Positions 1-58,516 of a stretch of 64,000 nt of DNA are shown piece by piece (position 1 is the first letter of the stretch; each line of letters starts with the position of its first letter). The position numbers and the translations under genes are program-made. The stretch comes from Candidatus Yanofskybacteria bacterium RIFCSPHIGHO2_02_FULL_43_17 (GTDB taxonomy: Bacteria; Patescibacteriota; Minisyncoccia; 2-02-FULL-40-12; GWA2-44-9), in the NCBI GenBank assembly GCA_001794435.1, contig MGJU01000014.1, forward strand, positions 27,494-91,493, given 5' to 3'. Under the pieces are notes generated by a model that did not search any database, had not been told where the DNA came from, and saw nothing but the letters and a program-made list of their open reading frames with translations.

Positions 1-46
1 CGCCGACCCGCCGTCTGGCGGGGAGGTGAATTTGACACTTCCCAGA

Positions 47-3390: not shown

Positions 3391-3393
3391 AAA

Positions 3394-4149: not shown

Positions 4150-4207
4150 TCTCTAAATTTTTTGATACTTAAGATTGTTTAGAGATTAGGGTTTAGAAAT
4201 TAGAGAC
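4127..4207. promoter_or_regulatory. ~30-bp near-perfect inverted repeat spanning the prsW-like stop and the hsp20 5' region
   Basis: AATCTCTAAATCCTAATTTCTAATCTCTAAA ... TTTAGAGATTAGGGTTTAGAAATTAGAGAC; ends 10 nt before the hsp20 ATG. Confidence 0.5.
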
Positions 4208-4216
4208 TTTACACAG

Positions 4217-4651
4217 ATGGACGATTTTTTTTCTGATGACAACAATGAATTAGATCCGATCCTGGCAGTTTCCGAAAAGTCCGCCCCAAAGAAGCGAGAT
4301 CTCGCTCTTAACGAGGGTGATTTCGACGGCCAACTGACAGTTGACGTATACCAGACCGAGGATGACATCGTCGTCCAGTCAACCATAGCCGGAGTCGACC
4401 AGAACGATATAGATATAACCGTCACAAACGATATGGTTACAATAAGGGGCAAAAGAACAACGCCGGACAAGGTAAAATCGTCTGATTATTACTATCAGGA
4501 GCTATTCTGGGGGCCTTTTTCAAGATCAATAATCCTGCCCGAGGATGTTGATTCTGATAATTCAAGGGCATCAATGAAGAACGGGCTTTTGACCATACGC
4601 CTGCCCAAATTGGCCAAAACACGAACGAAAAAAATAAAAATATCGGGATAA
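4217..4651 (+). CDS. Hsp20/alpha-crystallin family small heat-shock protein
   Basis: alpha-crystallin domain pattern (GLLTIRLPK C-terminal strand). Confidence 0.85.
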   Translation: MDDFFSDDNNELDPILAVSEKSAPKKRDLALNEGDFDGQLTVDVYQTEDDIVVQSTIAGVDQNDIDITVTNDMVTIRGKRTTPDKVKSSDYYYQELFWGPFSRSIILPEDVDSDNSRASMKNGLLTIRLPKLAKTRTKKIKISG

Positions 4652-5817
4652 TGCCCAATTTATCAAAAAGCTTCATGCTATTTGTAAGCCGGTTATCTAT
4701 AGCCGGCGTTATTGTTTTAGGTGGCTTTCACTTCGGTTCCACTTTTTTTATAGCAAACACAACTGAGAAACTGGAAAAAGTAGAAGTAAAAAACTTAGCT
4801 GAAAAAATAAACGGCCAATCTGTCGACAATCTGGAGATCTATATCCAAAACAGCAAAATGGTCATACTTTCTGAAACTATAAAAAGTTGGCTTGAACCCT
4901 ATGTCAGAAATTACACGGGTAAAAAAGATATCAGAATATCGCCTGAAAGAGTGGGGGTATATCTTGCCTCGATAGCGCCGTTGGTAAACATTCAACCAGT
5001 AAACGCCAAGTTTATACTGGTCAACGGCAAAGCCGAGGAGTTCATCCCGGCTAAAAACGGACAAAACTTAAACCTTGATGCTTCTAAAAAACTTATTATA
5101 GACGCAATAACCAATGGGTATAAGGATGTGAATTTACCTGTTGAGATTATCGAGCCGGCCATAACCTTGGATAAAGTTAATGAATTGGGAATCATCACGC
5201 TTATCGGCCGGGGTGAATCTGACTTTAAAGGGTCGCCTCCTTCCAGAATTCATAATATAAAGATCGGTTCCGCCAAATACAACGGCACGATACTGAAACC
5301 GGGTGAAGAATTTTCTTTCAATTCAATTTTGGGAGAAGTCGATGAAAATAACGGTTACCAGCCGGAACTTACCATTAAGAACGGCAAACTGGTCTACGAA
5401 TACGGCGGCGGATTGTGCCAAGTTTCAACAACCTTATTCAGGTCAGCGATAATGGCCGGACTGCCGATACTGGAGAGAAAACCGCATTCTTTTCCGGTAA
5501 GGTACTACGACCCACAGGGTTATGATGCCACGATATATCCGGGAGTGGTGGATCTAAGATTTAAGAATGACACGCCTAACCACATCCTCATACAATCAAG
5601 GATAGAAGGCTCTAAACTGATATTCGATATTTACGGCTCGGGAGACGGAAGAAAAGTTGCGCTTAACGGGCCTTTTCAATATGATCAAAAAACAAACGGC
5701 TCCATGAAAGCGTATTTTGTCAGAAAAATTACTTCAGCCAACGGTTCCGTAAAAGAGGAGAGATTTGACTCAAACTACGGCGCGCCGGCTCCGCTTGAGA
5801 AGAATCCGTTGGAATAG
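4651..5817 (+). CDS. VanW family protein
   Basis: GGGLCQVSTTLFRSAIMAGLPILERKPHSFPVRYY VanW-domain core; N-terminal TM segment. Confidence 0.8.
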   Translation: MPNLSKSFMLFVSRLSIAGVIVLGGFHFGSTFFIANTTEKLEKVEVKNLAEKINGQSVDNLEIYIQNSKMVILSETIKSWLEPYVRNYTGKKDIRISPERVGVYLASIAPLVNIQPVNAKFILVNGKAEEFIPAKNGQNLNLDASKKLIIDAITNGYKDVNLPVEIIEPAITLDKVNELGIITLIGRGESDFKGSPPSRIHNIKIGSAKYNGTILKPGEEFSFNSILGEVDENNGYQPELTIKNGKLVYEYGGGLCQVSTTLFRSAIMAGLPILERKPHSFPVRYYDPQGYDATIYPGVVDLRFKNDTPNHILIQSRIEGSKLIFDIYGSGDGRKVALNGPFQYDQKTNGSMKAYFVRKITSANGSVKEERFDSNYGAPAPLEKNPLE

Positions 5818-5837
5818 TATAGTTTAGCGCTAGTATT

Positions 5838-5922
5838 GGGCGAGTGGCGGAACTGGAATACGCGCACGGCTTAGGACCGTGTTCCGAAAGGATTGAGGGT
5901 TCGACTCCCTCCTCGCCCACCA
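5838..5922 (+). tRNA. tRNA-Leu (anticodon UAG)
   Basis: long variable arm; anticodon loop CUUAGGA; CCA encoded. Confidence 0.85.
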
Positions 5923-5926
5923 TAAA

Positions 5927-5959
5927 CTCAAAATCCCCATCATGGGGATTTTGAGTTTT
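5927..5959. terminator. intrinsic terminator hairpin
   Basis: CTCAAAATCCCCAT-CAT-GGGGATTTTGAG followed by TTTT; sits between convergent tRNA-Leu and the pilin-like array. Confidence 0.6.
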
Positions 5960-5976
5960 ACTATCGATAACAAAGT

Positions 5977-6348
5977 TTAGGCGAAGAAGGATCGGGTAAT
6001 AAGTCCCGCCAATGTCTGCAGTATCACGCCGACACCCAGCACTACCGCCGCTCCGATCACACCGTTCCATATGGTCGATTGGGCCGATTTGACCTTTTCG
6101 TCGTCGCCTCTGGCTGCCATATACATAACTCCTCCCCAAATAATGAATATAACGGCGAGAATAACTGAAACAATTATCAAAAATTGCGCTATTCTTCTTA
6201 TCAATTCCTCAATCTCAAGTAGGGTTATTGCTGAGCCGGTGGTTGGAGGCGTCGGAGTTGGCAAGGTTCCCGCCAATACCAAAACAGGCATCAAAACCGC
6301 TATTATTGCCAACGCGACTAATGTTGTTCTGCTAATATTTTTTTTCAT
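5977..6348 (-). CDS. T4SS pilin-like (VirB2/TrbC-like) small membrane protein, paralog 1
   Basis: N-terminal signal/TM, PT-rich spacer, C-terminal two-helix hairpin module IIWGGVMYMAARGDDEKVKSAQ...GAAVVLGVGVILQT shared with four neighbouring genes. Confidence 0.55.
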   Translation of the reverse strand: MKKNISRTTLVALAIIAVLMPVLVLAGTLPTPTPPTTGSAITLLEIEELIRRIAQFLIIVSVILAVIFIIWGGVMYMAARGDDEKVKSAQSTIWNGVIGAAVVLGVGVILQTLAGLITRSFFA

Positions 6349-6688
6349 TCCTCCACCTCCCTTCCGCGAAATTTGCCCATGAGGAGTTGCTGAAAGCAGC
6401 CGAATAGCTGCAAATTTCAGCGTCCCGCTCTATCTGGAATCGAAGCTGCAGAATAATACTAGTCAAGACGAAGTCGGTAATTTCACAAAGTCCTGACTGG
6501 CCTATTGCTTTGACTCTAGATAGAGCGGGGTTCCTCGTGTTTTTAACTTACCTTCATTATATCAAATACAAATAAATTTGGTAGTAACCCCGCACCAATC
6601 TTATCCGCTGACCGCCATTAAGAAATGAGGCGGGATTGGAGCGGGGTTAAGTGTTTGTCGCCAATCGCTTCGCTCTTGGACAAACAAC

Positions 6689-7099
6689 TTAATAAATACA
6701 CGTTCCTATAATCGGAATCCTTACGGTACAGAAGAAGTCAAGGGTTATTACAGAAGCTATTGTCTGGATAATTACTCCGACACCGAAAATAATCGCCGCA
6801 CCGATAATACCGCTTCTCAGTCGCGCTTGGGCGGCCGTTACTTTGGTCGCATCATCTCCAGCATACATATATGTCACCCCGCTCCAGATGATGAATATCA
6901 CTGTCAACAAAGCGCTAACTGTGATGAAAAATGTGCTGACCCGAAATATTACATAATCCAAAACATCTAGGGTGATCGGATTGCCCGGAAGCAGGCCCTG
7001 ACTGCCGGCTCTGGAACTTGGAACATTTACAACCATCGCCGGCAATACGTAAGCCAGAAAAATGAATAGTGACGAAACTGTCCGTAATATTTTTTTCAT
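6689..7099 (-). CDS. T4SS pilin-like small membrane protein, paralog 2
   Basis: same C-terminal module (IIWSGVTYMYAGDDATKVTAAQ...GAAIIFGVGVIIQT); start taken at MKKILRT. Confidence 0.55.
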   Translation of the reverse strand: MKKILRTVSSLFIFLAYVLPAMVVNVPSSRAGSQGLLPGNPITLDVLDYVIFRVSTFFITVSALLTVIFIIWSGVTYMYAGDDATKVTAAQARLRSGIIGAAIIFGVGVIIQTIASVITLDFFCTVRIPIIGTCIY

Positions 7100-7213
7100 C
7101 CCGTTAGAAATAGTACAAAGCACCAACTACCACCGTGCGGTGCCATATACTATTATTTATTGTTTTATTGATATTAATATGATTCATACCCATTAGGGTT
7201 ATTTCTAACGGGA

Positions 7214-7558
7214 TTATTCGCAGCTCAACGGTATAAATAAAGTATAATCGGCGCCTAAAGAATTGGCAACCGTAGCAATTATAGTATAAGTTCCGAGTAT
7301 AACTAAAACGCCGACCAATCCCCACAAAAACGACTTTCTGGCTTCGGTCACCTTTGTCGGATCACCTTGCGACATCAAAAATTTCACTCCAAAATAAACA
7401 ACCGCCACCACCACCAAAACAAGGGCGACCCTTGTGATCCAGCAGGCAAGACCGGTTATTATTCCTAAAACATCCTGAATAGTTAAATCTATGCCCGGCG
7501 CAGTTCCGGTCACGCCGTATAATAAAGATCGGGAATTTGGAATTTGGAATTTCATCAA
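7214..7558 (-). CDS. T4SS pilin-like small membrane protein, paralog 3
   Basis: same module (VVYFGVKFLMSQGDPTKVTEARK...VGVLVILGTYTIIAT). Confidence 0.55.
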   Translation of the reverse strand: MMKFQIPNSRSLLYGVTGTAPGIDLTIQDVLGIITGLACWITRVALVLVVVAVVYFGVKFLMSQGDPTKVTEARKSFLWGLVGVLVILGTYTIIATVANSLGADYTLFIPLSCE

Positions 7559-7591
7559 GATTTGTTTAGAAATTAGGACTTACAAATTTAC

Positions 7592-8563
7592 TTAGGGCGT
7601 TCCTCCTAAGTTCAATATGCTCTCTATTAAAGTAATGAATCCTTTGCCTATCATTATTATAGCCAACCCCACCACGGCGTACACTAGTATCTGTCTGGCT
7701 TGAGTCACTTTAGCCGTATCGCCTCGAGAGGTCAAAAACATCACTCCCGCATAAACAATCATAGCTACGGCAATGGGAATGGCGAGGTTAAACAACCAAG
7801 TAGCGATGACATTTATCAATTCTATCAGATTATCCGCCAATATGGGATTAGTGATAGAAAAATTAAACGACTGCGTTGCACCAGGAGCTCCACCGCCTCC
7901 GCCACCACCACCGCCTCCGCCGCCACCGCCACCTCCAGGTGCTTGTTGGCCACAAATATTAACATTGATTTGCAAAGGAGTTCTTCCGGCACAAGCCGGA
8001 ACATCAGATAAATTCTGAAAATTCCCCGGACTGCAAGCGTAAGTGCCGTCACCAGCCACACAGGCCCATATCAATTCTCCGGTACCTACCGTAATCCTGA
8101 CCCTGGGAGACTCGATAACATTTGTATTGTAAATATAACCGGTATTTCCACACTCAATCAGCATATAGACATTTGCATCGGGTCCGCTCCAAGCCGGAAG
8201 TCTTGTTGATTGCGTAACCGATGTCTGAATGCTTTGCCCAGTACGCTGAAAACTCTGCGTACCGCTTGTCAAAACTTCGTCTTCTTCATTATTAAGATCC
8301 AGTTTCAAGCTCCAAACATAAGAACTAATATTATTGTCCCCACAATGCCTAGAATATGCGGCCAAATCTATAACACCCCTCATTGAAAAAGTGACCGGAT
8401 TATTTGGATTAACCACAAGAACTGGATTTGCAGTAAAACTACTGACAGTAAATCCGTTGGCGCTGATACCGCCTACAGTTCCAGCAAGAGCTAGATAATC
8501 AGTCGAAGGATTGATTATAACCAGAATAAAAACATAGAAAAATATGGTAATTTTTCTGATCAT
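7592..8563 (-). CDS. secreted Cys-containing domain fused via (Gly)16 tether to a C-terminal T4SS pilin-like module, paralog 4
   Basis: signal peptide, ~200-aa Cys-rich extracellular domain, G16 run, then MIVYAGVMFLTSRGDTAKVTQARQ...module. Confidence 0.55.
   Translation of the reverse strand: MIRKITIFFYVFILVIINPSTDYLALAGTVGGISANGFTVSSFTANPVLVVNPNNPVTFSMRGVIDLAAYSRHCGDNNISSYVWSLKLDLNNEEDEVLTSGTQSFQRTGQSIQTSVTQSTRLPAWSGPDANVYMLIECGNTGYIYNTNVIESPRVRITVGTGELIWACVAGDGTYACSPGNFQNLSDVPACAGRTPLQINVNICGQQAPGGGGGGGGGGGGGGGGAPGATQSFNFSITNPILADNLIELINVIATWLFNLAIPIAVAMIVYAGVMFLTSRGDTAKVTQARQILVYAVVGLAIIMIGKGFITLIESILNLGGTP
7879..7929 (-). repeat. imperfect (CCN)16 triplet tract encoding poly-Gly
   Basis: ccaccgcctccgccaccaccaccgcctccgccgccaccgccacctcc on the plus strand. 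Confidence 0.8.
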
Positions 8564-8622
8564 TTGTGTAATATGTTTTCCTTAAGTATTGGTATTGATG
8601 ATTTTTTATATCTGGACATCTT

Positions 8623-9294
8623 TCAATTTATTATACCTTGATCGAATTTATCGGTAAATTCGTTTTCCTGAATATGTTTTGCTTTTTCCCGTCTTCGCCA
8701 CACATACCACCCGCCAGCCGCCAGTATGGCAATGACCAGAGTAATTAATATTACCACGTTCGCAGATAAAAACCCCTTGTCCAAATTCGGCGGCGGCACA
8801 GGCACAGCACTTCGACAGTCATTAGGGCAAGTTTGTTCACTTTCCCCTCTGTCAGAATTGCACGTCCCGTCATCGTTGCAAAAGGAACTCTCGCTCACAA
8901 AAACTGTCAGAAGTATTTTCCCTTGCGAGTCATAGAAAACCGCTTTCTGGCCGTCAGGCGCATATGGCGCTTTGACCGAAATTTTACCTTTCAAAAAGTC
9001 GGGGTTGCCTCGTTTGGGATCAAACAAAAACTCCGCCGCCACCCCGTTCTTAAGGTTAATTATTTCTCCCTTAAAAGGGAATTGGGTATTGAACGTCTCG
9101 GGAGTGAATTCTTCTGGAATAACATCGTACTTGAACTCAAAATCCCTATCGGCAAACAACTGGCCGTTATCATAATAGAGATGAAAATTGTAAACATAAC
9201 TATCTTCTATCCTAATATCAGCCCAAGCTGGAAGTAAAAAAACAAACACAGCCACTGATACGAAGAAAAATATTTTAGAAACTAAATTAAACAT
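8623..9294 (-). CDS. secreted protein with C-terminal membrane anchor, Cys-rich segment, unknown function
   Basis: signal peptide MFNLVSKIFFFVSVAVFVFLLPAWA, CNDDGTCNSDRGESEQTCPNDC motif, C-terminal TM plus RRREK. Confidence 0.5.
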   Translation of the reverse strand: MFNLVSKIFFFVSVAVFVFLLPAWADIRIEDSYVYNFHLYYDNGQLFADRDFEFKYDVIPEEFTPETFNTQFPFKGEIINLKNGVAAEFLFDPKRGNPDFLKGKISVKAPYAPDGQKAVFYDSQGKILLTVFVSESSFCNDDGTCNSDRGESEQTCPNDCRSAVPVPPPNLDKGFLSANVVILITLVIAILAAGGWYVWRRREKAKHIQENEFTDKFDQGIIN

Positions 9295-11084
9295 TAAAAT
9301 ATGTTGGCATAACAATACTCGACTCTTGGAGCATACCTCCTTGTAAAAGCATAACTCGTCGGTCGGTCGGCATTACAGATATTATGCGAGTTGTTATCCC
9401 AAAGACACTCCCACCTTCTTGTTTCTCTCCCCTGGCCTCCACACACATCGCACCGTCCTCCGTCTGAAGCCGCAGACGGCCCACAGTTAGCACTAACTGA
9501 ACACGCACCAGCTCCTCCATTATATCCCGCCGCCAACTGTCTTGCATCGCAACCACAAGGACCGGCAATAGAATTCCTCAAATAAGTTGCCGCTATGCAG
9601 GCCTGCTCTTCTATTGTATCGCATCGATTGAGCCAGGCAAAATCAATGGTTTCAGTCACACCACATTGACTCTTATACAACGTAGCTACGTCAGGTTTAA
9701 GTTGGAAAAATCCGGCTGACTCCCCGTCTTCAGCAATAATACTACACCTACCCGACGACTCGTTTGCCGCAATGGATTTTAATAATTTTACTGTATCAAT
9801 TCCGCCGCAAACATTTATATTACCCACTCCAGCAATTATGGCTGCACTGTGAGTATTCACGGCAGAGGCAGCACAATTGCCACCCGGGTTAACTGGTGAA
9901 CAACTTAATGTGTCTGGAGCACCCCCAAAAGTACATGTTGATCCGGTACACAAATTACTCGTATTCGTTTGACTTACCACAATGGTAAAGTTCCTCCTCG
10001 AACTTCTTGTAGTTGGAGGTTCTTCTGTAAGCAAGATTTGGAAAGTAATAGTACCGGCCGTAGTGGGTGTGCCGGAAATAACCCCGGTTGAAGAATTCAA
10101 GTTAAGACCGGCCGGCAATGAACCGGAATATACTGCCCAACGATATGGAGGAGTTCCTCCGGTTCCGGTAATAGTTGTGGAGTAAGCTTGGCCGACTGTG
10201 GCGCCCGGAAGAGCGGCTGGAGTGGTGATAGATAAGGTACCCGTGCCGGTTCCCGCTATGACAATGGTAAAGTCTCTTGTTGCCGATTGCTGGGGCGTTG
10301 AGTTGTCGGTGACTCTGACGGTGAAAGTCGCCGTGCCAACAGCAGTAGGAGTTCCGGAGACAACACCAGAGGCAGTATTAAAACTTAAACCAGCAGGTGG
10401 AGAACCAGTCGTTGTCCAAGCATAAGGAGTTGTACCGCCAGAAACTTGAATTGTCTGAGAGTACTGCTGGCCCACCGTGCCGCCCGGAAGGTCGACGGTA
10501 ACAATGGATAACACTGCTCCCGGTGGTGGAATGGTCGATGTCGGAGTAGGAGTCGGTATTGGAGTGACAGGTGGCGGTGTGGCGGGTACTCTCTCAACAC
10601 AAGTGAACTGCCACCAATTGTCAGCATTGTCGTAGTTGGAACCGACGCTTTTTATCAAAGTGTTGGTTATCATCCACGCCGAAAGTATAATTATAATTCC
10701 GTAGAAAGTGTTTGTAAAAATTGTCCTTCCTTGCGCAACTAAGCCAGGATTGGCTCCGCCAAGCAGGATTAAAAAACCGGCCCATACAAAAAGTAAGACG
10801 GCCAGCACAGGCATCAAGGCGCCAACAGTAAAGTCGATAGTGTTTTTTAAAAGCCTAAAAAGATCGCAACGGCCACAGGATTGATAATAAGAATCATCGA
10901 GCACAACTTTGCCATCAGCTATTTCAGCGGGAGTGGGCCTTTCAAGGCCACAAGGCACCAACGGCCAGCCGGGAAGATCAACAGATTGCTGTCCTCCCAA
11001 GGCAAAGCCGGGGAAAAACAGTAAAATAACTAGCGAGATAAGTAGTAAATTCTTTCTTATCATTTTACTCTTTGATTTTTGCAT
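9294..11084 (-). CDS. chimeric surface protein: N-terminal pilin-like module, Pro/Thr linker, He_PIG-type Ig-like repeats, C-terminal lytic-transglycosylase-like (VirB1-like) domain
   Basis: N-terminus carries the LFVWAGFLILLGGANPGLVAQGR module; three repeats of LPxGxxGxxYSxxI..GGTxPYxW; C-terminus has ANESSG..GFFQL and AAGYNGG motifs reminiscent of the SLT catalytic region. Confidence 0.5.
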   Translation of the reverse strand: MQKSKSKMIRKNLLLISLVILLFFPGFALGGQQSVDLPGWPLVPCGLERPTPAEIADGKVVLDDSYYQSCGRCDLFRLLKNTIDFTVGALMPVLAVLLFVWAGFLILLGGANPGLVAQGRTIFTNTFYGIIIILSAWMITNTLIKSVGSNYDNADNWWQFTCVERVPATPPPVTPIPTPTPTSTIPPPGAVLSIVTVDLPGGTVGQQYSQTIQVSGGTTPYAWTTTGSPPAGLSFNTASGVVSGTPTAVGTATFTVRVTDNSTPQQSATRDFTIVIAGTGTGTLSITTPAALPGATVGQAYSTTITGTGGTPPYRWAVYSGSLPAGLNLNSSTGVISGTPTTAGTITFQILLTEEPPTTRSSRRNFTIVVSQTNTSNLCTGSTCTFGGAPDTLSCSPVNPGGNCAASAVNTHSAAIIAGVGNINVCGGIDTVKLLKSIAANESSGRCSIIAEDGESAGFFQLKPDVATLYKSQCGVTETIDFAWLNRCDTIEEQACIAATYLRNSIAGPCGCDARQLAAGYNGGAGACSVSANCGPSAASDGGRCDVCGGQGRETRRWECLWDNNSHNICNADRPTSYAFTRRYAPRVEYCYANIF

Positions 11085-11092
11085 TTTAAACC

Positions 11093-12427
11093 TTATCGAC
11101 TGCGTCGCGACCTTGCCATCAACACATTAACTTCCGATTCGGCGTTCTGGATTGCCTCTCTTACTGAAAGCCGACCAAAGTTAATGTCATCTATCATTTC
11201 GGCAAATATGGATTCTATCGCGGAATTGTCTATTTGATACCATGATTTTGCAGTAAGGGCTTGGTTGGCAAAAACACCTAATCGCAAATCGTTCTTCTGA
11301 AGATCTATAATATCGCGTCGCGCCGAAGGCCGCATCGTTTGGGCAAGATAGCTTGATGCTCCCTCTCTGGAAGCAAGGTAGGTCACGAACTTCCAGGCTT
11401 GATTGGAGACTAACGAGTTCTTTGAAACAGCGACGGCCCAATAGTTGGCGTAGTTTTTGATATCGCTCTCGCTTATCTGCGGCATGGACGCAACAGAATA
11501 ATTCAAGCGCGCGGCTTTTTGACTTAAAACTCCGGCCTGATGGGAATAGTTGAACATCATCGCAACTTTTCCGTCAACGAAGGCATCAATTGAATACGGC
11601 TGGGCATTGTTCCACGTATAGGTTCTTATATTGGGATTGGCAAAATCGGTGTAATATCTCAAAGCCACCTCGCCAATGGGAGTGTTGTTTACAGACCTTG
11701 CGAATGTGGCGCTAGTGTTGTTTATATCGGTCATTCTTGCGCCGCTTTGAAGCATAAGGGCCATAAGCACATCTGTTGACCTGTTAATATTTTCTGACGT
11801 GCCCATAGCCGCGCCTGATTGCATGATATTTCCCGAGGCATCGAGTTTGGTGAGTCGCTCGACTGCATTGTTGAATTCATCCCAATTTTTCGGAGGCGAA
11901 GTAATGCCGGCATTATTGAAAAGATCCCTGTTGTAGTAGAGAGCGAGGGTATCGACATATAAAGGCACCCCGTATATCTTGCCGCCGACGATTAAATCCT
12001 GAGTGGCAACTTCAACAAACTGGCTCTGAAAATCCTTTACGGACATCGGCGGACGGTCCAAACCGGAGATTTTCTCCGGAAGAGGCATAAGTTTGTCTAG
12101 ATGTTTTGGCAGCCAAGTCTGATGTATCATCCAAATATCAGGTCCCGTGCCGGCCGCAAGAGCGTTTACCACTTCCCTCTCGTAATCCTCGAATGAGAAT
12201 TGTCTATACACGACCGTAGTGCCAGGATTTTGAGTTTGGAATTCTCTGATAACCTTGTCGAAAACTGTCTTGTCGTCAAAAACGCCCCAGAACTCTACGG
12301 CAACTCTCGGACCAATGCCGCCCCCGCCGACATTGCGCAGGATTAAAATAAGCGTGAGAAAGACAAGTATCGCAATACCCGAAACGAGAATTATCATCAG
12401 TCTCTTGTTGTCTATCTGAATTGGCAA
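11093..12427 (-). CDS. ABC-transporter extracellular solute-binding protein (family 1, sugar-type), orphan
   Basis: N-terminal TM/signal; VEFWGVFDDKTVFDKVIREFQTQNPG...DIWMIHQTWLP pattern; no permease or ATPase nearby. Confidence 0.7.
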   Translation of the reverse strand: MPIQIDNKRLMIILVSGIAILVFLTLILILRNVGGGGIGPRVAVEFWGVFDDKTVFDKVIREFQTQNPGTTVVYRQFSFEDYEREVVNALAAGTGPDIWMIHQTWLPKHLDKLMPLPEKISGLDRPPMSVKDFQSQFVEVATQDLIVGGKIYGVPLYVDTLALYYNRDLFNNAGITSPPKNWDEFNNAVERLTKLDASGNIMQSGAAMGTSENINRSTDVLMALMLQSGARMTDINNTSATFARSVNNTPIGEVALRYYTDFANPNIRTYTWNNAQPYSIDAFVDGKVAMMFNYSHQAGVLSQKAARLNYSVASMPQISESDIKNYANYWAVAVSKNSLVSNQAWKFVTYLASREGASSYLAQTMRPSARRDIIDLQKNDLRLGVFANQALTAKSWYQIDNSAIESIFAEMIDDINFGRLSVREAIQNAESEVNVLMARSRRSR

Positions 12428-12446
12428 TGATTTATGTTTAAAGTTG

Positions 12447-13037
12447 TCAAGAATAAATATTCTTCTTAAATATCATTCCGAAGTGGAACTGCCCGGCATT
12501 GAAGACCTTATCGAATATCATCCCCTCACCAGTAGCAAGAGAACGCATGGCTTCATCATCAGTTCTTAATCTGTCAGGCGGACCGAATCCATTGGCGCCC
12601 TTTTTCCAATCAATAATTATAAGCGAGCCGTTGTCCCTCAATACCCTTTTTGCTTCTTTCACGATGTCTGATTTTTTATCGGACTGAAATAAAATATTCG
12701 CTAACAAAACAATGTCCTGCGACTGGTCAGCCAGACCGGAACTGCCCACAACCTCAAGATTGGTCCGGATCATCTCTACATTCTCAAGCCCGGCAGCTTT
12801 GGCTTTTTCCCTTACGCTATCAAGGGCGCTCTCCATAATATCTAAAGCATAAACCCGGCCTTCTTTGCCGGCCCTCTCGGCCATCAAAATAGTAAAGTAT
12901 CCTGCTCCCGAACCAAAATCGGCTATGTTCATTCCTTCTCTTACCCCAAATTCATTAACAATCGAGTCCGGATTCAAAAACCCGCCCGTACTAAGAGGGT
13001 TGCCAGAGCCGACTATTGGAGTAGCCGTCATTTCCAT
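12447..13037 (-). CDS. class I SAM-dependent methyltransferase
   Basis: DFGSGAGYFTILMA motif I, acidic post-I residue. Confidence 0.75.
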   Translation of the reverse strand: MEMTATPIVGSGNPLSTGGFLNPDSIVNEFGVREGMNIADFGSGAGYFTILMAERAGKEGRVYALDIMESALDSVREKAKAAGLENVEMIRTNLEVVGSSGLADQSQDIVLLANILFQSDKKSDIVKEAKRVLRDNGSLIIIDWKKGANGFGPPDRLRTDDEAMRSLATGEGMIFDKVFNAGQFHFGMIFKKNIYS

Positions 13038-16602: not shown

Positions 16603-16763
16603 ATTGAAATCGTAGCAAAAAATTAGTTCAAAATCAACTTCGACACACCTCTACTGCTCGACCTTATGCCATAATGGCTGAGGCCTGAAGCAAAAGATGG
16701 GGAGGGGTGAGGAAACTACGAGTTGCATTGTCGAAAATAATAATGTATATTCTTCACGATATG

Positions 16764-16879
16764 GAATCCCGAACGAAATAGCCCTAATGGGTTCGGGAAT
16801 CAAATTAATAATTAACCGAACAGCTTGTTTTACAGATATAACTTATGTGTATAACTGTGAAACAGCTACTTCGTACGGG
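16764..16879 (+). repeat. 116-bp leader element (copy A) with conserved ends abutting the rpsA ATG
   Basis: 5' end AATCCCGAACGAAATAGCCCT and 3' end CAGCTACTTCGTACGGG immediately before ATG; paralogous copy at 55081-55196 before yidD. Confidence 0.6.
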
Positions 16880-17962
16880 ATGGAACTAGCGCAAAGCGAT
16901 ATAAAATCCATGAAAGAACTCCTGGCGAAGGAGGAATTTTATTTACCGAAGCCCGGAACTATACTGCAAGGCCAGATGATAAATGTCTCGAAGAACAACG
17001 TGATAGTCGACCTCGGTCAGGCCGGTATTGGCATAGTTTATCCGGGGGAATTCTACGATAATCCCGAAAGAATGCGCGCTCTTAAGCCGGGCGACATGGT
17101 TTCCGCTATGCTTATCGAGCTGGAGAACGAAGAGGGCTACCGAGAACTTTCTTTGAGGTCAGCCCAGATGACAACCGCTTGGCAGGATATTAAAGAAAAA
17201 ATGGACAAGGAAGAAATAGTAACCACCACCGTCATCAATATCAACAAAGGCGGTCTCATTGTTGAAGTAAGCGGAGTTCAAGGCTTCCTGCCCCTGTCCC
17301 AGCTCTCCCCCGAACACTACCCTAAAGTAGAGGGCGGCGACACGACCAGAATCGTCCAAGCGCTTCAAAAATTCAAAGGTCAGGAATTAATGGTAAAGAT
17401 AATAGGTTTCTCGGAAGCCGAAAATAAACTCATCGTTTCGGAAAAAGCGATACTAGAAGACCTTGCCAAAGAAGAGCTGAAAAAACTGACCGTCGGAGAT
17501 ATGGCGGAGGGTGAGATAACCGAAGTAACCGATTTTGGCGCTTTCGTAAGGCTAAGCGACAACCTTGACGCCCTGATACATTCTTCAGAGATTGACTGGA
17601 AGTTTATTGAAGACCCGCGAGAAGTTCTCCACATCGGAGACAAAATAAAAGCCAAGATAATAAATTTGGACGGCGGCAGAGTTTCGCTCTCCCTGAAAGC
17701 TCTGAAACCCGATCCATGGGAAACGGTTGAAGAAAAGTTCCAGGTCGGCCAGAAGATCAAAGGCAAAGTCATCAAGATCCGATCGAGCGGCGCATTCGTA
17801 GAATTATCAGACGACATCGTTGGATTTCTACCAGCAGAAGAAGTAATAAAAGACGGCAAACCTGCCCGAACGACTGACGTCGTTCAGTCAGGCGGAGAAT
17901 ACGATCTGGCCATCGTCAGTATAGACGCCAAAGATCACAAAATAGTTCTCACACTTGAGTAG
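16880..17962 (+). CDS. rpsA: 30S ribosomal protein S1
   Basis: four S1 domains (GQMINVSKNNVIVDLG, GIVQRKEG-like, EVTDFGAFVRL, GKVIKIRSSGAFVEL); start chosen at MELAQS, upstream ORF extension unlikely. Confidence 0.85.
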   Translation: MELAQSDIKSMKELLAKEEFYLPKPGTILQGQMINVSKNNVIVDLGQAGIGIVYPGEFYDNPERMRALKPGDMVSAMLIELENEEGYRELSLRSAQMTTAWQDIKEKMDKEEIVTTTVININKGGLIVEVSGVQGFLPLSQLSPEHYPKVEGGDTTRIVQALQKFKGQELMVKIIGFSEAENKLIVSEKAILEDLAKEELKKLTVGDMAEGEITEVTDFGAFVRLSDNLDALIHSSEIDWKFIEDPREVLHIGDKIKAKIINLDGGRVSLSLKALKPDPWETVEEKFQVGQKIKGKVIKIRSSGAFVELSDDIVGFLPAEEVIKDGKPARTTDVVQSGGEYDLAIVSIDAKDHKIVLTLE

Positions 17963-18037
17963 TCGCTCAAATATTATCCTCACTCTCAACCTTCGCTTCA
18001 AAATAATTCTTCTTCAACACACCTCTTGCCACTCGAA

Positions 18038-18243
18038 GCCATCCCCATTTTCATCACGGATTTCTCATAGAGCAATCGCGATTCGCTCCTAATTTTTCTG
18101 ACCGCCCGAAGCCACTTCCGTCAGGCCATGCGGTCCCGCCAAGGCGGGACCGTTCCTGACACCTTCGGCTCGGTTTCTCAGAAAAACAGCGTCGCTCATC
18201 TGCAACTGCTGTCTATTCGTCATAGTGATTCAAATAGGGATGG
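18038..18243. ncRNA. structured element copy 1 (candidate ncRNA, identity unknown)
   Basis: ~85% identical core to 56945-57147; central GGTCCCGCCAAGGCGGGACC hairpin; closing stem differs in sequence from copy 2 but keeps pairing (covariation). Confidence 0.45.
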
Positions 18244-18538
18244 CTCTTCGCTGGCTGGTTGACAAGTTAAGCTAAAACCTCCAGGGAGCAAGACCACCAG
18301 ACAATTTTTCTAGCGTTTACGCTTCTTTACTACAAATCCGAGATATTTGAGAGATAATGCGGTCCGCATTATGACCAAATATCGAAGGATTTGTTAACGA
18401 AGCGGAAGGCGTAAAAAATTGTCTGGCGGTCTCGCGACTGACCATAGCACACACCCCCCGACCTTGACTGAAGTTATATTTTACTATATACTATATTCAT
18501 CGTTTCGTTCCTTAACCAAGACAAGAAAGGACTGGGAA

Positions 18539-31000: not shown

Positions 31001-32866
31001 TTAGAAAAGATATCTTAAGATTGAAGGGATTGATAAGTGAAGAAAATCTTTATTGGTTTTCATGTTTGCCATTTTCAGATATGTGCGGAAATTGTTGCCA
31101 AATTTAACAGTTCTCGGCAAAGTTGATGCTAAATTTGACGTTGATACAGGTGAAAGCGTAAGATCGCCGGATACATACCAATTGGGATCAAAATTGACAT
31201 CCAGCTCAAAATCCATCAAACGAAATATGAAATCTTGATTAAACGCAGTCCCCTGATTGGCTCCATTTCCAATATTAGGCGAACTATCGTACCCGTTGGC
31301 AGCATACGCCCACGTTCCAGCGCCATCCAACACCAGATCCTGCGCTGTAGGATTGCCTTCAGTGTTATTGTTGTTCCAAATTTTTACATAACTTGTACCA
31401 ACGGCGCCATGTCGCCAGCTCCATTGAAGATTAGACCACTGTCCAACCGGCAAAGAAACGGTTGCGGTATCAGTATAATGATTAATATTTCTTTGCAGTG
31501 TGAAACACACATTGGCAGTATCCGTCCCGCCACAATTTGAACCGCTTTCCAAAAAACCTATGACCCGATTACCGGAACCAGCGCTACCAATATGCCAAAT
31601 GAAAAACTTAAGTTGGCGCCTAGTATCGCCTCCGGGGGCAACACTTATTGGGTTTTCAATATATATTCTCATTCTTCCATAAAAGGGCCCATTAGCTGGC
31701 CAAGAAGAATAAGCAGGTCTTGAATTGCTTTCTATCCAACCGGCGAGTTCTGAATTTTGGCCAGATTGAGACACGTCAAAATCACACCACTTGTATTGAG
31801 TGTATCCTCTATTACTCCAACCGCCGGAATTAAAATGAGTATTTTGCCAATAAACCCCGTTAGCGCATGTGCCTGACGGACGAACCTCTGAAAGGTTTCT
31901 CCATTGGCTGTTGGGGCTCCAATACATCTGATATGGGGTTGATTGAAATGGGATTCTGATTAAAACGTTGGTGCTTGGTGTTGGAGTCGGAGTTGGCGTA
32001 GGTGTCAGAGTAGGAGTCGGTGTTGGAGTAGGCGTTGGAGTCGGGGTAACGCTTGGTGTCGGAGTCGGAGTTGGTGTTGGTGTTGGGGTCGGAGTTGGTG
32101 TCGGCGTTGGAGTGGGTGTGGGTGTCGGTGTAACTCCTCCCCTATCAGAGATAGCCCTTATTTTGAAAAAATCGTATCTTGGGTCATTATCGTTGTCTGC
32201 TGCTCGTCCGCCAATACCAGACTGAATGTGGACCGCGTCATCAAGCCTTGCGGTATTAGTATCGGTAAAAGTTCCGTTGGGTGACCCATTAATACCTATC
32301 CATCCCGGGTCAGAGGGTTTGACGGAACCGTGATTCACAACCCATGCATTTAATACTACGTTAGCTCCTACTGCTCCGGAAGCCGATAATCGCACGGTAT
32401 AAAAATTACCTGATGTCACGGTAACACCGCTTACTATTGCTCCAAGAATCGTTCTTACGCCGGCATTGTAACGCGCGAGTTGGAGAGTCCTTGTAGACGC
32501 TTCAAGATAAACGGCGTAAAAGTCGTTTCTGCCGGCATCTTGAACTCGCACAGCGGTCATTGGGGTACGAGTAGCTGTTGCGGCTCCGGTTATCTGAGCC
32601 TCATGTTCTATGCTGCCGGGATTACTTACAGAATAGCGAAACAATGATGTAAGAGCCGTGTTGCCGTCTAAATCGAGGGTGGTGGCATCCCAAACAGCAG
32701 AGCCGAGGTTTATGGTCCAGCGAGATGGAGAAAATGGATTGGTGTCGAAGTTGTCTGAAGATTCAAAAGCAACGGCAAATTGCGGATTTATTAAAGACAC
32801 TGCGAAAATAGCAACAAAGAACGCTACGACCCTAAGTCTAAAATTAAAATATTTGTTATTTTTCAT
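31001..32866 (-). CDS. large secreted protein with (TP)n linker and jelly-roll/lectin-like domains
   Basis: signal peptide; ~50-residue TPTPTP linker; Trp/Asn/Gly-rich beta-type domains; function unknown. Confidence 0.5.
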
Positions 32867-32993
32867 AAGAGAAAATATACCACAAGAAATTTTAAGCGCC
32901 AAATTTGTTGATGAGGGGCGGGATAACTGTCCTGTTTTTAATAACCAAAACCCCGCACGGAGGCACTGTCGGGGTTCGGATAAAATTGTCTAT

Positions 32994-35831: not shown

Positions 35832-36148
35832 ATGTTTAATATTAGTAGTTAAAAATAAATACGAGTAATAATTTCCAGCAACAACTATCTTGCCCTGCCT
35901 AGAGCGCAATAATCATGTTGCCGAAATTTTTACCTCTATTTATATAAATTATACGCAACTTAATTATACACAATTACGATACGGAGCAACAATGGTCAAA
36001 AAACCGATAGATATCCACAACCCGTACCAAGGAACACGCGGGCTTTGCGGGCGGCGGCAGAGCACTTGTCTGCCGATAGGTAGGGCTTTCTCGGTTCAAA
36101 AATTTTTGATAAGGTATGTCCTAGCTAAGCTGTAAGCATACTGCGACC

Positions 36149-56458: not shown

Positions 56459-56935
56459 ATGGCACAAAAATTAGACAAGGACGATGTTTTAAGAGCCGTA
56501 ACGAAAGTGGCTGGTTTTATGAATATTGAATGTCAAATTGAAGCGAAAGAAGAACCTGCCGATAAACACGGAGAAGGAGCTGTTGTTGTGTCTGTTCAGA
56601 CGCTTGATAACGCCAGATTTTTAATTGGCAAGAACGGCCAAAACCTGAAGGCTTTGGAACATGTTCTTAGGGCTATGCTGGTTAAAGACGGGAAAGAAGG
56701 CACCATCGTTTTAGATGTGAATGACTATAGGAAGTCCCGAGCTACCTATCTTGTTGATGTGGCTAAACAAACAGTTGCAAGAGTAAGGAATACGCAGAAA
56801 GCCGAAGCCTTGTTTCCAATGTCGGCTTATGAAAGGCGGATAGTCCATATGGAGCTTGCGGCTTATCCTGATATTGCTACAGAAAGTGTCGGCGCGGAAC
56901 CGCAAAGAAGGGTTATAATCAAACCGTATCCATAG
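56459..56935 (+). CDS. jag: Jag/KhpB-type RNA-binding protein (KH plus R3H)
   Basis: IGKNGQNLKALEHVL KH motif; R3H-like YERRIVHMEL. Confidence 0.8.
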   Translation: MAQKLDKDDVLRAVTKVAGFMNIECQIEAKEEPADKHGEGAVVVSVQTLDNARFLIGKNGQNLKALEHVLRAMLVKDGKEGTIVLDVNDYRKSRATYLVDVAKQTVARVRNTQKAEALFPMSAYERRIVHMELAAYPDIATESVGAEPQRRVIIKPYP

Positions 56936-56944
56936 AGATCGCTC

Positions 56945-57147
56945 ACCCCAGCTACTCTTTTCTCACGAACTCCTCATAGAGCAGTTACGATTCGCTCCTA
57001 ATTTTTCTGACCGCTCGGGGTCACCCCTGTCAGGCCATGCGGTCCCGCCAAGGCGGGACCGTTCCTGACATCCCCGACTCGGTTTCTCAGAAAAATGTCG
57101 TCGCTCATCTGCAACTGCTAACTACTCGTCATCAAGTGAGAAAAGAG
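56945..57147. ncRNA. structured element copy 2 (paralog of 18038-18243)
   Basis: shared core with compensatory stem changes; 12-bp closing stem CTCTTTTCTCAC/GTGAGAAAAGAG. Confidence 0.45.
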
Positions 57148-57451
57148 AAGCAAGGGTTTCGCTCCTTGTCATTTAAATCTGAGCAACACCTATCGCAATT
57201 TTATCACTTGACGAGCCCGCCAAAGTTTTCCAATGGAAAATTTAGGCGGGCGAGTCAAGAAAACTTATGAGAGTGAGGCGGATTTTATCTGAAATCATAG
57301 GTCGAACGCCCAGCCCCTCTTTTCAGAGAAAAGAGGGGCTGGGAGGCAAGAGAGGGTTACCTGTGATTTTAGAACATAAACCCTGCTCTATCTTGAGTAA
57401 GTTTTTGAAGGTGAGGAATCGTGATAAAATTGCGATAGAAGTTGCGAGCGA

Positions 57452-58516
57452 CTATTTAATTTTCAGAGCATACAGCTTGTCGTCTATCTCATTGAGTATG
57501 TAAATAACATCTCCTAGCGGGCCAAGAGCCATCTCTTTAGTAAGCAGATTAATGCTTGGTACCGAAACCAGTATTTTAGAACCATCGGCCACGCTTATTC
57601 TGTAAAATTCGTCCTTGAGTTGGGTTTGGTTTTTAACTCCGCAAATAACCTCATCCCTATTTAACCAGGCGCACTTTGAAGCGTTAGAATTTACATCCAG
57701 AGAAACGATTGCGTCATTGTTAGCAATATCTATGTAAAACAGGCGTTCAGAACCAGTGCCATTTTTGGCAGAAAATAATATTTTTTCGCCATCGGGCGAC
57801 CATTTTACGCCAAGATCGTATTGATAGGACAGTATTTTATTGAGGGCGCCTTCTTCTTTTAGAACAAGCAGATCGCCATACCCGTCTTTATCGTAGGATA
57901 CTATGGATATAAAATCATCCCTTGGCCAGCTGACTGTTACGGCGCCGAGCCGTGTTTTAAGGGCACGCTTAATGATTTTCCCGGCTTTGGATATGAGCAA
58001 CTCTCCCACCCCGTCGTTAACAAGCAGATACGTCGCTTGATCGCCGTGAGGAGAGAAAGCAGCCGACCTTAAATTACCCGCCAAGTTTGATTTTTCGCCT
58101 GTTTTTAAATTTAAATAAACCGTTTTTCTGTTGTTCCCAGCGTCATAAAAAGAGTAGATAACAGAGTCGCCTGTCGGCGATAGCAGTACTTCCGATATAT
58201 CGGTTCGACCCAAAGAGGCCAGAACTTTTTCTCTGATATTGGCCGCATCTATTTCAATAATATCACCATTCTTGTCTACGGCTATTATATTTTCAGAACC
58301 AAGGCTGACAAACGAAACAAGCCTTCTGGAGCTAAGGGGCAGTGTTTTTGGAATTGTGGTTTCAAGCAACTCCGCCTTAGTGTTGCTATTGAATCTTTGT
58401 ATCAATGAATTGCTTTGGGTGCCGAGCCCGCCTCCTAGAGTTAAAAGACGGCCGGATAAAAAGGCAATAGCTCCTAATGTTATGAATATTGAAACCAATA
58501 ATATTTTTTTCTCCAT
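57452..58516 (-). CDS. membrane-anchored TolB-like beta-propeller protein
   Basis: N-terminal TM; repeated hydrophobic-Asp/Gly blades (LLSPTGDSVIYSFYD, ILFSAKNGTGSERLFYIDI). Confidence 0.45.
   Translation of the reverse strand: MEKKILLVSIFITLGAIAFLSGRLLTLGGGLGTQSNSLIQRFNSNTKAELLETTIPKTLPLSSRRLVSFVSLGSENIIAVDKNGDIIEIDAANIREKVLASLGRTDISEVLLSPTGDSVIYSFYDAGNNRKTVYLNLKTGEKSNLAGNLRSAAFSPHGDQATYLLVNDGVGELLISKAGKIIKRALKTRLGAVTVSWPRDDFISIVSYDKDGYGDLLVLKEEGALNKILSYQYDLGVKWSPDGEKILFSAKNGTGSERLFYIDIANNDAIVSLDVNSNASKCAWLNRDEVICGVKNQTQLKDEFYRISVADGSKILVSVPSINLLTKEMALGPLGDVIYILNEIDDKLYALKIK

What the first reader, a model, noticed from the sequence alone, without database searches (positions are those of the whole stretch)
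18038..18243. Two paralogous ~205-nt structured elements with compensatory stem changes (second copy 56945-57147)
The cores of the two loci align almost base for base (TCATAGAGC...CGATTCGCTCCTAATTTTTCTGACCGC...GTCAGGCCATGCGGTCCCGCCAAGGCGGGACCGTTCCTGAC...GGTTTCTCAGAAAAA...GTCGCTCATCTGCAACTGCT...CGTCAT). Where they differ, pairing is preserved. An internal stem CCGAAG/CTTCGG in copy 1 corresponds to TCGGGG/CCCCGA in copy 2. The outer closing stem is CCATCCCCATTTTCATCAC/GTGATTCAAATAGGGATGG in copy 1 but CTCTTTTCTCAC/GTGAGAAAAGAG in copy 2. Covariation of this kind argues for selection on RNA structure. Copy 1 follows rpsA and copy 2 follows jag. The central hairpin CCCGCCAAGGCGGG also occurs in the post-stop GC hairpins. 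Candidates are a duplicated regulatory RNA (6S-like or other), a structured mobile repeat, or a cis element.
Basis: seen in the sequence. Interest (0 to 1): 0.7.

Follow-up and report, generated by a model that had tools for sequence, protein, structure and literature searches.

The report
Nested palindromic repeat at gene ends
The two look-alike 205-base hairpin sequences are copies of a small, probably mobile, palindromic DNA repeat found only in a few groundwater Yanofskybacteria; it sits exactly on the stop codons of neighbouring genes, takes the place of their terminators, and matches no known regulatory RNA.

Summary
Windows 18038-18243 and 56945-57147 are 86% identical, and each folds into one long rod hairpin (z about -8 to -10).

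It is a dispersed repeat, not a conserved RNA gene. About 17 distinct copies were found, only in Candidatus Yanofskybacteria MAGs and related Rifle-type metagenome contigs. There are 2-3 copies per genome, next to unrelated housekeeping genes. Close relatives have empty sites after rpsA and after jag.

The 205-nt piece is the core of a larger nest of palindromes. Its ends read TAG|TCGCTCAAC...GTTGAGCGA|CTA, and those TAGs are the stop codons of the flanking genes. Empty sites have TAA and a plain terminator hairpin.

The "compensatory" changes are swaps of whole self-complementary modules that reassort among copies. That is weak evidence for selection on RNA. An excess of G-U pairs on the minus strand does hint at an RNA-level constraint.

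No Rfam family matches, no ORF is conserved, and no transposase lies nearby.

Best reading: a MITE-like nested palindromic element that now serves as the 3' hairpin or terminator region. It is a new member of a known kind, of moderate interest.

The parts
17960..17970 (+). Left terminus of the copy-1 composite: rpsA stop codon TAG (17960-17962) followed at once by TCGCTCAA
   Evidence: Four rpsA orthologues without the element end in TAA followed by a plain terminator.
17971..18038 (+). Left extension between the terminus and the closing stem of copy 1
   Evidence: Absent from the empty rpsA sites L100-L103.
18039..18243 (-). Element A copy 1. Closing-stem arms are 18039-18057 and 18225-18243. 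The central palindrome TTTTTCTGA...TCAGAAAAA is 18093-18186. The apex hairpin is 18131-18152. The unpaired conserved blocks are GATTCGCTCCTAA (18080-18092) and GCGTCGCTCATCTGCAACTGCT (18189-18210).
   Evidence: The strand is given as minus because G-U pairs and folding energy favour it.
18280..18445 (.). Companion long hairpin 'C' (CCAGGGAGCAAGACC...GGTCTCGCGAC). It sits to the right of A in this copy and in L045, L075, L054, L067 and L069.
   Evidence: It is part of the roughly 490-nt block missing from relatives.
56933..56944 (+). Left terminus of the copy-2 composite: jag stop TAG (56933-56935), then AGA, then TCGCTC (56939-56944)
   Evidence: The empty site L104 has TAA.
56955..57147 (-). 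Element A copy 2, with closing-stem arms 56955-56966 and 57136-57147
57148..57165 (.). Orphan outer part of the right closing arm (AAGCAAGGGTTTCGCTCC). Its left partner GAGCGAAACCCTGCTT, present in full-length copies, is missing in this copy.
57183..57445 (.). Companion palindrome 'D'. Its arms are GCAACACCTATCGCAATTTTATCAC (57183-57207) and GTGATAAAATTGCGATAGAAGTTGC (57421-57445), and it holds two inner hairpins. It is also found with A in L044/L081, and without A after jag in L106.
57446..57454 (-). Right terminus of the copy-2 composite: GAGCGA, then CTA, which is the TAG stop of the convergent 354-aa gene (57452-58516, minus strand)

Best explanation
Element A is the core module of a non-autonomous, MITE-like family of nested palindromes confined to a narrow Candidatus Yanofskybacteria lineage.

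Shown:
- Copies sit in unrelated gene contexts, and close relatives have empty sites.
- The full unit is built as hairpin within hairpin.
- Its ends are inverted repeats, TAGTCGCTCAAC...GTTGAGCGACTA, and the TAGs serve as the stop codons of the flanking genes. Empty sites have TAA plus a short terminator hairpin.
- A 67-nt sub-element carries a clean TA duplication.
- Modules (outer stem, middle, apex) reassort among copies.

Inferred:
- The modules spread by TA-targeted insertion and/or recombination between copies.
- Only insertions that keep the neighbouring reading frames intact survive in this very compact genome.
- Each module is self-complementary, so swapping a module changes both arms at once and looks like compensatory evolution.
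- Once in place, the composite is transcribed as the 3' untranslated end of the flanking gene or genes. Its long hairpin then does the job of the terminator it displaced, ending transcripts or protecting their 3' ends. The minus-strand RNA is the better-folding and apparently constrained form.
For: Narrow distribution. An exact-pattern scan of 185,579 species genomes found real copies in only one genome, Ca. Yanofskybacteria RIFCSPLOWO2_01_FULL_42_49, with 3 copies. A metagenome scan gave about 22 copies, all Rifle-type contigs. The window belongs to a Yanofskybacteria MAG.

Unrelated contexts. Flanking DNA and proteins are unrelated between most loci. The neighbours are ordinary genes: S1, Jag, ParB, transketolase, VanW, PMT_2.

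Presence or absence at the same site:
- L061/L097 is syntenic with window 1-12900 and carries a copy where the window has none.
- rpsA in L100-L103 has no A or C, a gap of 109-144 nt in L100 and L101 (the two with the same downstream gene as the window), and a TAA stop in all four.
- jag and the 354-aa gene in L104 are separated by only the 24-nt hairpin ATAACCCCCGTATCAGGGGGTTAT, with TAA on both sides. The window has 516 nt there, with TAG on both sides.

Termini. TAG(+0-3 nt)TCGCTC closes 10 long ORFs at 7 loci. At W2 and L069 it does so on both sides of the unit. TAG is only 9 of 49 stop codons in the window. TAGTCGCTCAA is about 100 times over-represented and always lies next to A.

Sub-element. 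E65 is inserted with a TA duplication at CAGAAAAATA^GCGTCGC in 4 copies.

Module reassortment. Two or three outer-stem types, alpha/beta middles and four apex hairpins occur in many combinations. The orthologous loci L063 and L069 differ by a whole-module swap.

Imperfect copies. Copy 2 and L054 lack a left outer arm, and L058 has arms from two subfamilies.

No Rfam family matches.
Against: - No transposase or autonomous parent element with the same ends was found. I could not search whole genomes for one.
- The window sites are replacements of the old terminator, not clean insertions with a duplicated target, so the insertion chemistry is not shown. The right end of the copy-1 block is followed by TG, not TA.
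- Copy number is low (2-3 per genome) and copies are 7-30% diverged, which is unusual for an active MITE.
- G-U pairs are in clear excess on the minus strand, whichever strand the structure is derived from. The minus strand folds better in 20 of 20 copies. Several unpaired blocks that were not used for retrieval are nearly invariant, such as CCGCAUGG and AAAAUUAGGAG. Both points fit an RNA under selection better than purely selfish DNA.
- Terminator function is inferred only from position.
Confidence: 0.6

Rival explanations
1. A family of trans-acting structured small RNA genes on the minus strand. It would be 6S-like or a protein decoy: a long rod with a conserved internal bubble carrying two GAGCGA motifs, duplicated a few times per genome.
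For: The fold is rod-like, with a roughly 15 x 13 nt weakly paired internal loop of conserved sequence. G-U pairs are in excess and folding is more stable on the minus strand in 20 of 20 copies. 89.6% of pair cells are paired, against 39-48% in slid controls.
Against: - No match to 6S or any other Rfam family, even at E<=10.
- The location varies between close relatives, and empty sites exist.
- The closing stem is truncated or mismatched in some copies.
- No convincing promoter or terminator was found.
- The invariance of the main conserved block is partly an artefact, because the copies were retrieved with it.
- The double-sided changes are block swaps.
Confidence: 0.12
2. A host 3'-end cassette (a bidirectional terminator or mRNA-stabilising hairpin) copied between gene ends by recombination or gene conversion rather than transposition, and kept by selection for that cis function.
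For: It replaces the native terminator hairpin exactly, stop codon to stop codon. It lies mostly between convergent genes or just after a stop codon. The apex hairpin is identical to stand-alone post-stop hairpins elsewhere in the window. Modules reassort as expected from recombination.
Against: - A 500-700 nt nest of palindromes is far more than termination needs.
- There is no U-tract after the main hairpin.
- The inverted-repeat termini and the TA-duplicated sub-element point to insertion events.
- Relatives do well with a 24-nt hairpin.
Confidence: 0.2
3. A non-autonomous element whose own minus-strand RNA guides its mobility. It would be bridge-RNA- or omega-RNA-like: internal-loop GAGCGA segments would pair with the TCGCTC motifs at the element ends or target.
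For: Two loop strands carry GAGCGA, and the termini carry its complement TCGCTC. The internal block GCGTCGCTCATC resembles the terminus TAGTCGCTCAAC.
Against: No IS110-type, TnpB or IscB gene lies near any copy. The repeated motif is explained more simply by nested insertion of related modules. No Rfam family of such RNAs matches.
Confidence: 0.04
4. A small protein gene on the minus strand (18089-18223, 44 aa).
For: An ATG-initiated ORF exists in copy 1, and one pipeline called it as a gene.
Against: Copy 2 has a stop after 4 codons. The beta-type middle module shifts the frame by 2 nt, and the 67-nt insertion changes the frame again, so no reading frame is shared among copies.
Confidence: 0.01

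Closest known systems
Correia elements (CREE/NEMIS) of Neisseria (from my own knowledge)
   Same: Both are small and have no transposase. Both have terminal inverted repeats, are flanked by TA, and lie next to genes. When transcribed, both fold into a long hairpin, and both occur as variants with internal insertions or deletions.
   Different: Correia elements are 100-155 bp, number in the hundreds per genome, and form a single palindrome. Here the unit is 300-800 nt with several nested palindromes, there are 2-3 copies per genome, and the ends carry the neighbours' stop codons. There is no sequence similarity.
ERIC/IRU and related enterobacterial intergenic repeats (from my own knowledge; RU-1/2/3 in PMC2759123 and PMC2229807, seen only as search hits)
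   Same: Both are imperfect palindromes in transcribed intergenic regions. Longer forms arise by insertions of about 70 nt at fixed internal sites, as E65 does here. Both sit at 3' ends of genes.
   Different: ERIC is 127 bp and widespread in one family of bacteria. No stop-codon-bearing termini are described for it. The sequences are unrelated.
REP/BIME/REPIN elements mobilised by RAYT transposases (PMC3733652, seen only as a search hit)
   Same: Both are palindromic extragenic repeats after stop codons. In both, paired arms stay complementary, and terminator or mRNA-stabiliser roles have been proposed.
   Different: REPs are 20-40 bp, carry a GTAG or CGTC tag, and are present in tens to hundreds of copies. 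None of these features is seen here.
Rickettsia palindromic elements (from my own knowledge)
   Same: Both are palindromic selfish repeats in a reduced genome, and both survive only where they do not break genes.
   Different: RPEs insert in frame inside genes. Here the element abuts stop codons. The companion element B duplicates start codons.
6S RNA (Rfam RF00013 and relatives)
   Same: Both are rod-like RNAs of about 200 nt with an internal bubble, in a small number of copies.
   Different: There is no model match. The locus is not conserved, the closing stem is not always intact, and the bubble lies off-centre and is partly paired.

Membership tests
MITE-like non-autonomous element | Small size and no transposase gene inside | tested here: met
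   Units are 300-800 nt. The only internal ORFs are not conserved in frame.
MITE-like non-autonomous element | Terminal inverted repeats | tested here: met
   TAGTCGCTCAAC / GTTGAGCGACTA lie at both ends in L069 and L054, and in imperfect form in window copy 2. A further inner repeat is CCCCACTAAATTTTGAGAA / TTCTCAAAATTTAGCGGGG.
MITE-like non-autonomous element | Target-site duplication | tested here: inconclusive
   TA flanks both ends in W2, L044, L045, L075, L069 and L054, but not the right end of W1. The duplication is clean only for sub-element E65. The window sites are replacements of the old terminator.
MITE-like non-autonomous element | Several copies at non-homologous sites, with filled and empty alleles | tested here: met
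MITE-like non-autonomous element | A related autonomous element with the same ends | not tested
   Nothing of the kind lies in the 783 kb of sequence held.
6S RNA | Match to the Rfam covariance models | tested here: not met
   There is no 6S hit at the gathering score or at E<=10.
6S RNA | Closing stem, large central bubble and terminal stem | tested here: inconclusive
   The rod has a conserved, weakly paired loop of about 15 x 13 nt, but it lies near the base rather than the centre. The closing stem is defective in W2, L054 and L058.
6S RNA | A conserved gene locus with its own promoter and terminator | tested here: not met
   The position varies between relatives. The scan found no matching signals.
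6S RNA | Binds RNA polymerase holoenzyme and templates pRNA | not testable with these tools
   This needs biochemistry.
REP/REPIN | A 20-40 bp palindrome with a GTAG or CGTC tag, in tens to hundreds of copies | tested here: not met
   Units are 300-800 nt, there are 2-3 copies per genome, and no consistent GTAG tag is present.
REP/REPIN | A RAYT (Y1 transposase) gene in the genome | not tested
   The whole genome was not available.
IS110 bridge RNA / TnpB omega RNA | Encoded next to the cognate recombinase or nuclease gene | tested here: not met
   Neighbours are housekeeping genes.

The most novel reading that the evidence does not exclude
The minus-strand transcript of element A is a functional structured RNA on which the whole element family depends. 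One possibility is a guide- or bridge-like RNA whose conserved GAGCGA loop segments pair with the TCGCTC termini or targets and direct stop-codon-precise integration by an enzyme encoded elsewhere in the genome. Another is a protein-binding decoy RNA spread by a MITE vehicle.
Probability: 0.05. Interest if true: 0.85.

Novelty: new member of a known kind. Interest (0 to 1): 0.42.

Why it matters
Candidate-phyla-radiation bacteria have tiny, tightly packed genomes and are thought to carry few mobile elements. This lineage nevertheless tolerates several families of palindromic insertions. The ones that persist are those that rebuild the signals they land on. Element A and its companions carry TAG at both ends and replace terminators stop codon to stop codon. 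Companion element B duplicates the start codon, or the ATGA stop/start overlap.

This is a clear example of how selfish DNA and gene-dense genomes accommodate each other. It is also a warning for RNA discovery: nested palindromes whose modules are swapped whole produce convincing-looking "covariation" with no RNA function needed.

If the minus-strand constraint is real, these elements may also be a source of new terminators or small RNAs in CPR bacteria.

Tried and rejected
- Rfam. I ran the gathering threshold on the whole window and on nine related loci, and a permissive scan (E<=10) on both copies. Only tRNAs and chance microRNA-like hairpin hits appeared.
- Viral contigs. Three pattern scans found no real copy; the 16-mer hits were chance.
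- Phage and plasmid collections gave no match with sensitive blastn.
- Small ORF on the minus strand. Rejected, because the frame is not conserved.
- RNAalifold on the raw alignment gave a fragmentary consensus, because of partial copies and insertions. I used the rod structure mapped from single-sequence folds instead, and checked it from both strands.
- Extra diverged copies. An nhmmer profile search of the 783 kb held found none.
- Element B was not found in other loci by blastn. E65 was not found outside A copies.
- A clean target duplication for the whole composite could not be established. The L061-versus-window site is rearranged, with a tRNA inverted. The window sites are replacements.
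- Promoter and terminator scans gave nothing above shuffled expectation for the element itself.
- Literature searches found no description of such elements in CPR or Yanofskybacteria.

Full report
**1. The observation**

The two loci exist as described. They are the only copies in the window. Repeat family D5 spans 18049-18223 and 56958-57132 at 86% identity. The conserved 20-nt and 27-nt blocks occur exactly twice, against zero expected.

Each copy folds into one long interrupted hairpin, far more stable than shuffled sequence (z -7.8 to -9.7). The minus strand is 17-20 kcal/mol more stable than the plus strand.

The apex hairpin CCCGCCAAGGCGGG is also found in stand-alone post-stop hairpins at 54702 and 55450. 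The upstream genes are an S1-domain protein (rpsA) and an R3H/KH protein (jag).

**2. No known RNA family and no protein**

Rfam gives only tRNAs at gathering thresholds. Permissive scans of both loci (E<=10) give nothing credible, and no 6S hit. The same holds for nine related loci.

The 44-codon minus-strand ORF of copy 1 is interrupted in copy 2. Its frame is broken by a 2-nt difference in one module type and by a 67-nt insertion in four copies. I reject protein coding.

**3. Where else it occurs**

The window comes from a Rifle Candidatus Yanofskybacteria MAG.

- An exact scan for the most conserved 19-mer in one genome per species (185,579 species) found real copies in a single genome, another Yanofskybacteria MAG. 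That genome has three copies on three contigs.
- The same scan of JGI metagenomes gave 22 loci with real copies at 68-93% identity. About 17 of the sequences are distinct.
- Viral contigs, phage records and plasmids have none.

The family is therefore narrow, with low copy number (2-3 per genome). One caveat: retrieval required the 19-mer, so its invariance among copies is by construction.

**4. A dispersed repeat with filled and empty sites**

Flanking DNA and flanking proteins are unrelated between most loci. The neighbours are ordinary genes: S1, Jag, ParB, transketolase, VanW and a PMT_2 glycosyltransferase. No transposase lies beside any copy.

Three site comparisons show presence versus absence.

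- **L061/L097.** This locus is syntenic with window 1-12900. It has a copy after the VanW-like gene, where the window has none.
- **rpsA.** Four orthologous loci (84-88% protein identity) lack the element. In L100 and L101, where the downstream gene is the same as in the window, the gap to it is 109-144 nt, against about 460-600 nt in the window. L100 carries a plain terminator hairpin in that gap. The stop codon is TAA in all four.
- **jag.** In L104 (94% identity, same gene order), jag and the convergent 354-aa gene are separated by a single 24-nt hairpin, ATAACCCCCGTATCAGGGGGTTAT, with TAA stops on both sides. The window has 516 nt there (56936-57451), and both stops are TAG.

**5. True extent and architecture**

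Full-length copies run from the stop codon of the upstream gene. In order they read:

- TAG|TCGCTCAAC
- an outer inverted repeat, CCCCACTAAATTTTGAGAA / TTCTCAAAATTTAGCGGGG
- a 29-bp closing stem, GAGAGCGAAACCCTGCTTCTTTTTCTCAC / GTGATAAAAAGAAGCAAGGGATTTCGCTCTC
- often further palindromes: 'C' at window 18280-18445 and 'D' at window 57183-57445
- a right end, GTTGAGCGA|CTA

TAG followed within 0-3 nt by TCGCTC closes ten long ORFs at seven loci. In window copy 2 and in L069 it does so on both sides, so the unit fills the space between convergent genes exactly, stop to stop.

TAG is a minority stop codon in the window: 9 of 49, against 31 TAA. The 11-mer TAGTCGCTCAA is about 100-fold over-represented in the sequence held and always lies next to A.

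In every filled-versus-empty comparison where the element terminus TCGCTC abuts the stop codon (rpsA, jag and the 354-aa gene), the filled allele has TAG plus TCGCTC and the empty allele has TAA. L106 has TAG AAG TCGCTCGC plus a D-type element but no A. At the VanW-like gene site (L061 versus the window), where no TCGCTC follows the stop, both alleles have TAG.

A 67-nt sub-element (E65) sits at one fixed point of the core in four copies, with a clean TA duplication. The central palindrome is also TA-flanked in most copies.

TCGCTC/GAGCGA recurs at each nesting level. The two "bubble" strands of the rod both carry TCGCTC on the same DNA strand, which is why they cannot pair with each other.

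The simplest reading is repeated insertion of related palindromic modules into the loop, or into a TA, of earlier ones. The conserved "internal loops" would then be the split remains of older loops.

**6. What the covariation means**

On a 20-sequence alignment, a rod structure of 84 pairs is 89.6% paired, against 39-48% when partners are slid. It has 25 pairs with changes on both sides.

These double changes are not scattered. They come as blocks that separate module variants:

- a middle module, alpha (GTCAGG/CCTGAC with CCGCTCGGGG/CCCCGACTCGG) or beta (GACCCGG/CCGGGTC with CCAATTGGGG/CCCCAATTGG)
- four apex hairpins
- two or three closing-stem types

The variants occur in many combinations. 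The orthologous loci L063 and L069 differ by a whole-module swap. Each module is its own palindrome, so replacing it changes both arms at once. This mimics compensatory evolution without any selection on RNA.

Several copies lack a proper closing stem. Window copy 2 and L054 have lost the left outer arm, and L058 joins arms of two subfamilies. That argues against a strict RNA-gene constraint.

**7. Evidence that some RNA-level constraint exists**

The minus strand folds better in 20 of 20 copies. In the well-aligned core helices, 18 pair columns show G-U on the minus strand. Only 5 show A-C, which would be G-U on the plus strand.

The asymmetry holds whether the reference structure is derived from the minus or the plus strand of eight different copies. 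Because copies are related, the number of independent events is perhaps 10-15.

A strand-biased mutation process could in principle do the same. However, the expected transcription or replication bias would favour the other strand. I treat this as suggestive, not proof.

Unpaired blocks that were not used for retrieval, such as CCGCAUGG and AAAAUUAGGAG, are also nearly invariant.

**8. Mechanism I commit to**

I read this as a MITE-like, nested palindromic element family (confidence about 0.6).

Shown: dispersal, filled and empty alleles, inverted-repeat ends that carry the neighbours' stop codons, a TA-duplicated sub-element, and module reassortment.

Inferred: TA-targeted insertion and/or recombination between copies, with survival only where reading frames stay intact. 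After insertion, the composite would take over the role of the displaced terminator as a 3' hairpin of the flanking transcripts.

Not shown: the enzyme, the exact insertion chemistry, and any transcription.

Rivals:
- a recombination-spread host terminator cassette (0.2)
- a trans-acting minus-strand small RNA, 6S-like or otherwise (0.12)
- an RNA-guided non-autonomous element (0.04)
- a small protein (0.01)

**9. Comparison with known systems**

It works most like Correia, ERIC, REP/REPIN and Rickettsia palindromic elements. It shares with them small size, palindromic form, position at gene ends, hairpin transcripts and variants with fixed internal insertions.

It differs from them in several ways. 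It has multi-level nesting, a large size and a very low copy number with high divergence. Its termini double as stop codons for one or both neighbours.

It fails the tests for 6S RNA, REP/REPIN and bridge/omega RNAs (see the membership table). I found no description of such elements in CPR bacteria.

**10. Verdict**

The finding is real and its sequence-level description is accurate. The most exciting reading, a new structured regulatory RNA supported by covariation, is not what the evidence favours. This is a new member of the known class of palindromic intergenic mobile repeats.

Its way of fitting into a gene-dense genome is unusually neat, and it carries an unresolved hint of RNA-level constraint. 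Interest is moderate.

Noticed in passing
window 16761-16885 and 55078-55200: A second paralogous hairpin element, 'B', has arms TCCCGaACGAAgTAGC / GCTACTTCGTACGGGA. It is an insertion that duplicates the start region.

At rpsA it is flanked by ATGGAA...ATGGAA. Relatives L100-L103 read promoter then ATGGAA with no insert.

Between rnpA and yidD it is flanked by ATGA...ATGA. The first ATGA gives the rnpA stop and the second gives the yidD start. L106 has the uninterrupted ATGA overlap. L104 has an orthologous B whose arms have a completely different but still complementary sequence (CGCACATAACAGC / GCTGTTATGTGCG).
   Followed up: partly
window 18280-18445; L045, L075, L054, L067, L069: Long hairpin family 'C' (CCAGGGAGCGAGACC...GGTCTCGCGAC) has a variable middle and usually sits to the right of element A. 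Its only Rfam hit is a chance match to a plant microRNA precursor model.
   Followed up: partly
window 57183-57445; L044/L081; L106 2490-2560; L058 left flank: Palindrome family 'D' has arms GCAACACCTATCGCAATTTTATCAC / GTGATAAAATTGCGATAGAAGTTGC. It travels with A in two genomes. It also occurs without A after jag in L106, again directly after TAG...TCGCTCGC.
   Followed up: partly
L066 1635-1656, L054 10496-10517, L071 278-297: A 20-22 nt perfect palindrome, CCTGCCTGCCGGCAGGCAGG, occurs in three unrelated places: once inside an element A copy and once apparently inside a transketolase-like ORF. It looks like a separate REP-like mini-repeat.
   Followed up: no
L006 (ERZ27254846 k141_1161304) 684-972: This short contig joins the left part of the copy-2 type to the right part of a copy-1-type element from a more distant relative. 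It is probably an assembly chimera across the repeat.
   Followed up: no
window 31935-32170, 33470-33850, 34610-35045 (also 10513-10583): There are long arrays of 6- and 12-nt periodic GGNGTN repeats. On the minus strand they encode Thr/Pro-rich low-complexity stretches inside two very large ORFs (31001-32902 and 32994-35909).
   Followed up: no
window 44819-44876, 54681-54738, 55429-55486: A family of post-stop hairpins (TAGCSACTAGCCAATAGCSACCCCGCCWWGGCGGGG...) shares its GC apex with element A. This suggests that apex modules are exchanged between stand-alone terminators and the element.
   Followed up: partly
L045 about 7000-7300 (= L006 1290-1484): A GC-rich stretch that looks highly structured lies right after element C (GGGAGTGCGGGGGCGAGGCCGTGTCC...). 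It has no Rfam match at gathering score.
   Followed up: partly
L102 3554-3760; upstream of rpsA in L100 and L103: Other Yanofskybacteria carry different AT-rich long palindromes (for example AATCTCTAATCTCTAAATCC...GGATTTAGAGATT) at the same intergenic positions. Occupation of gene ends by palindromic elements seems general in this lineage.
   Followed up: no
window 7172-7215 (minus strand): There is a weak match (80% over 46 nt) to the left arm of element B. It may be a third, degenerate B copy.
   Followed up: no
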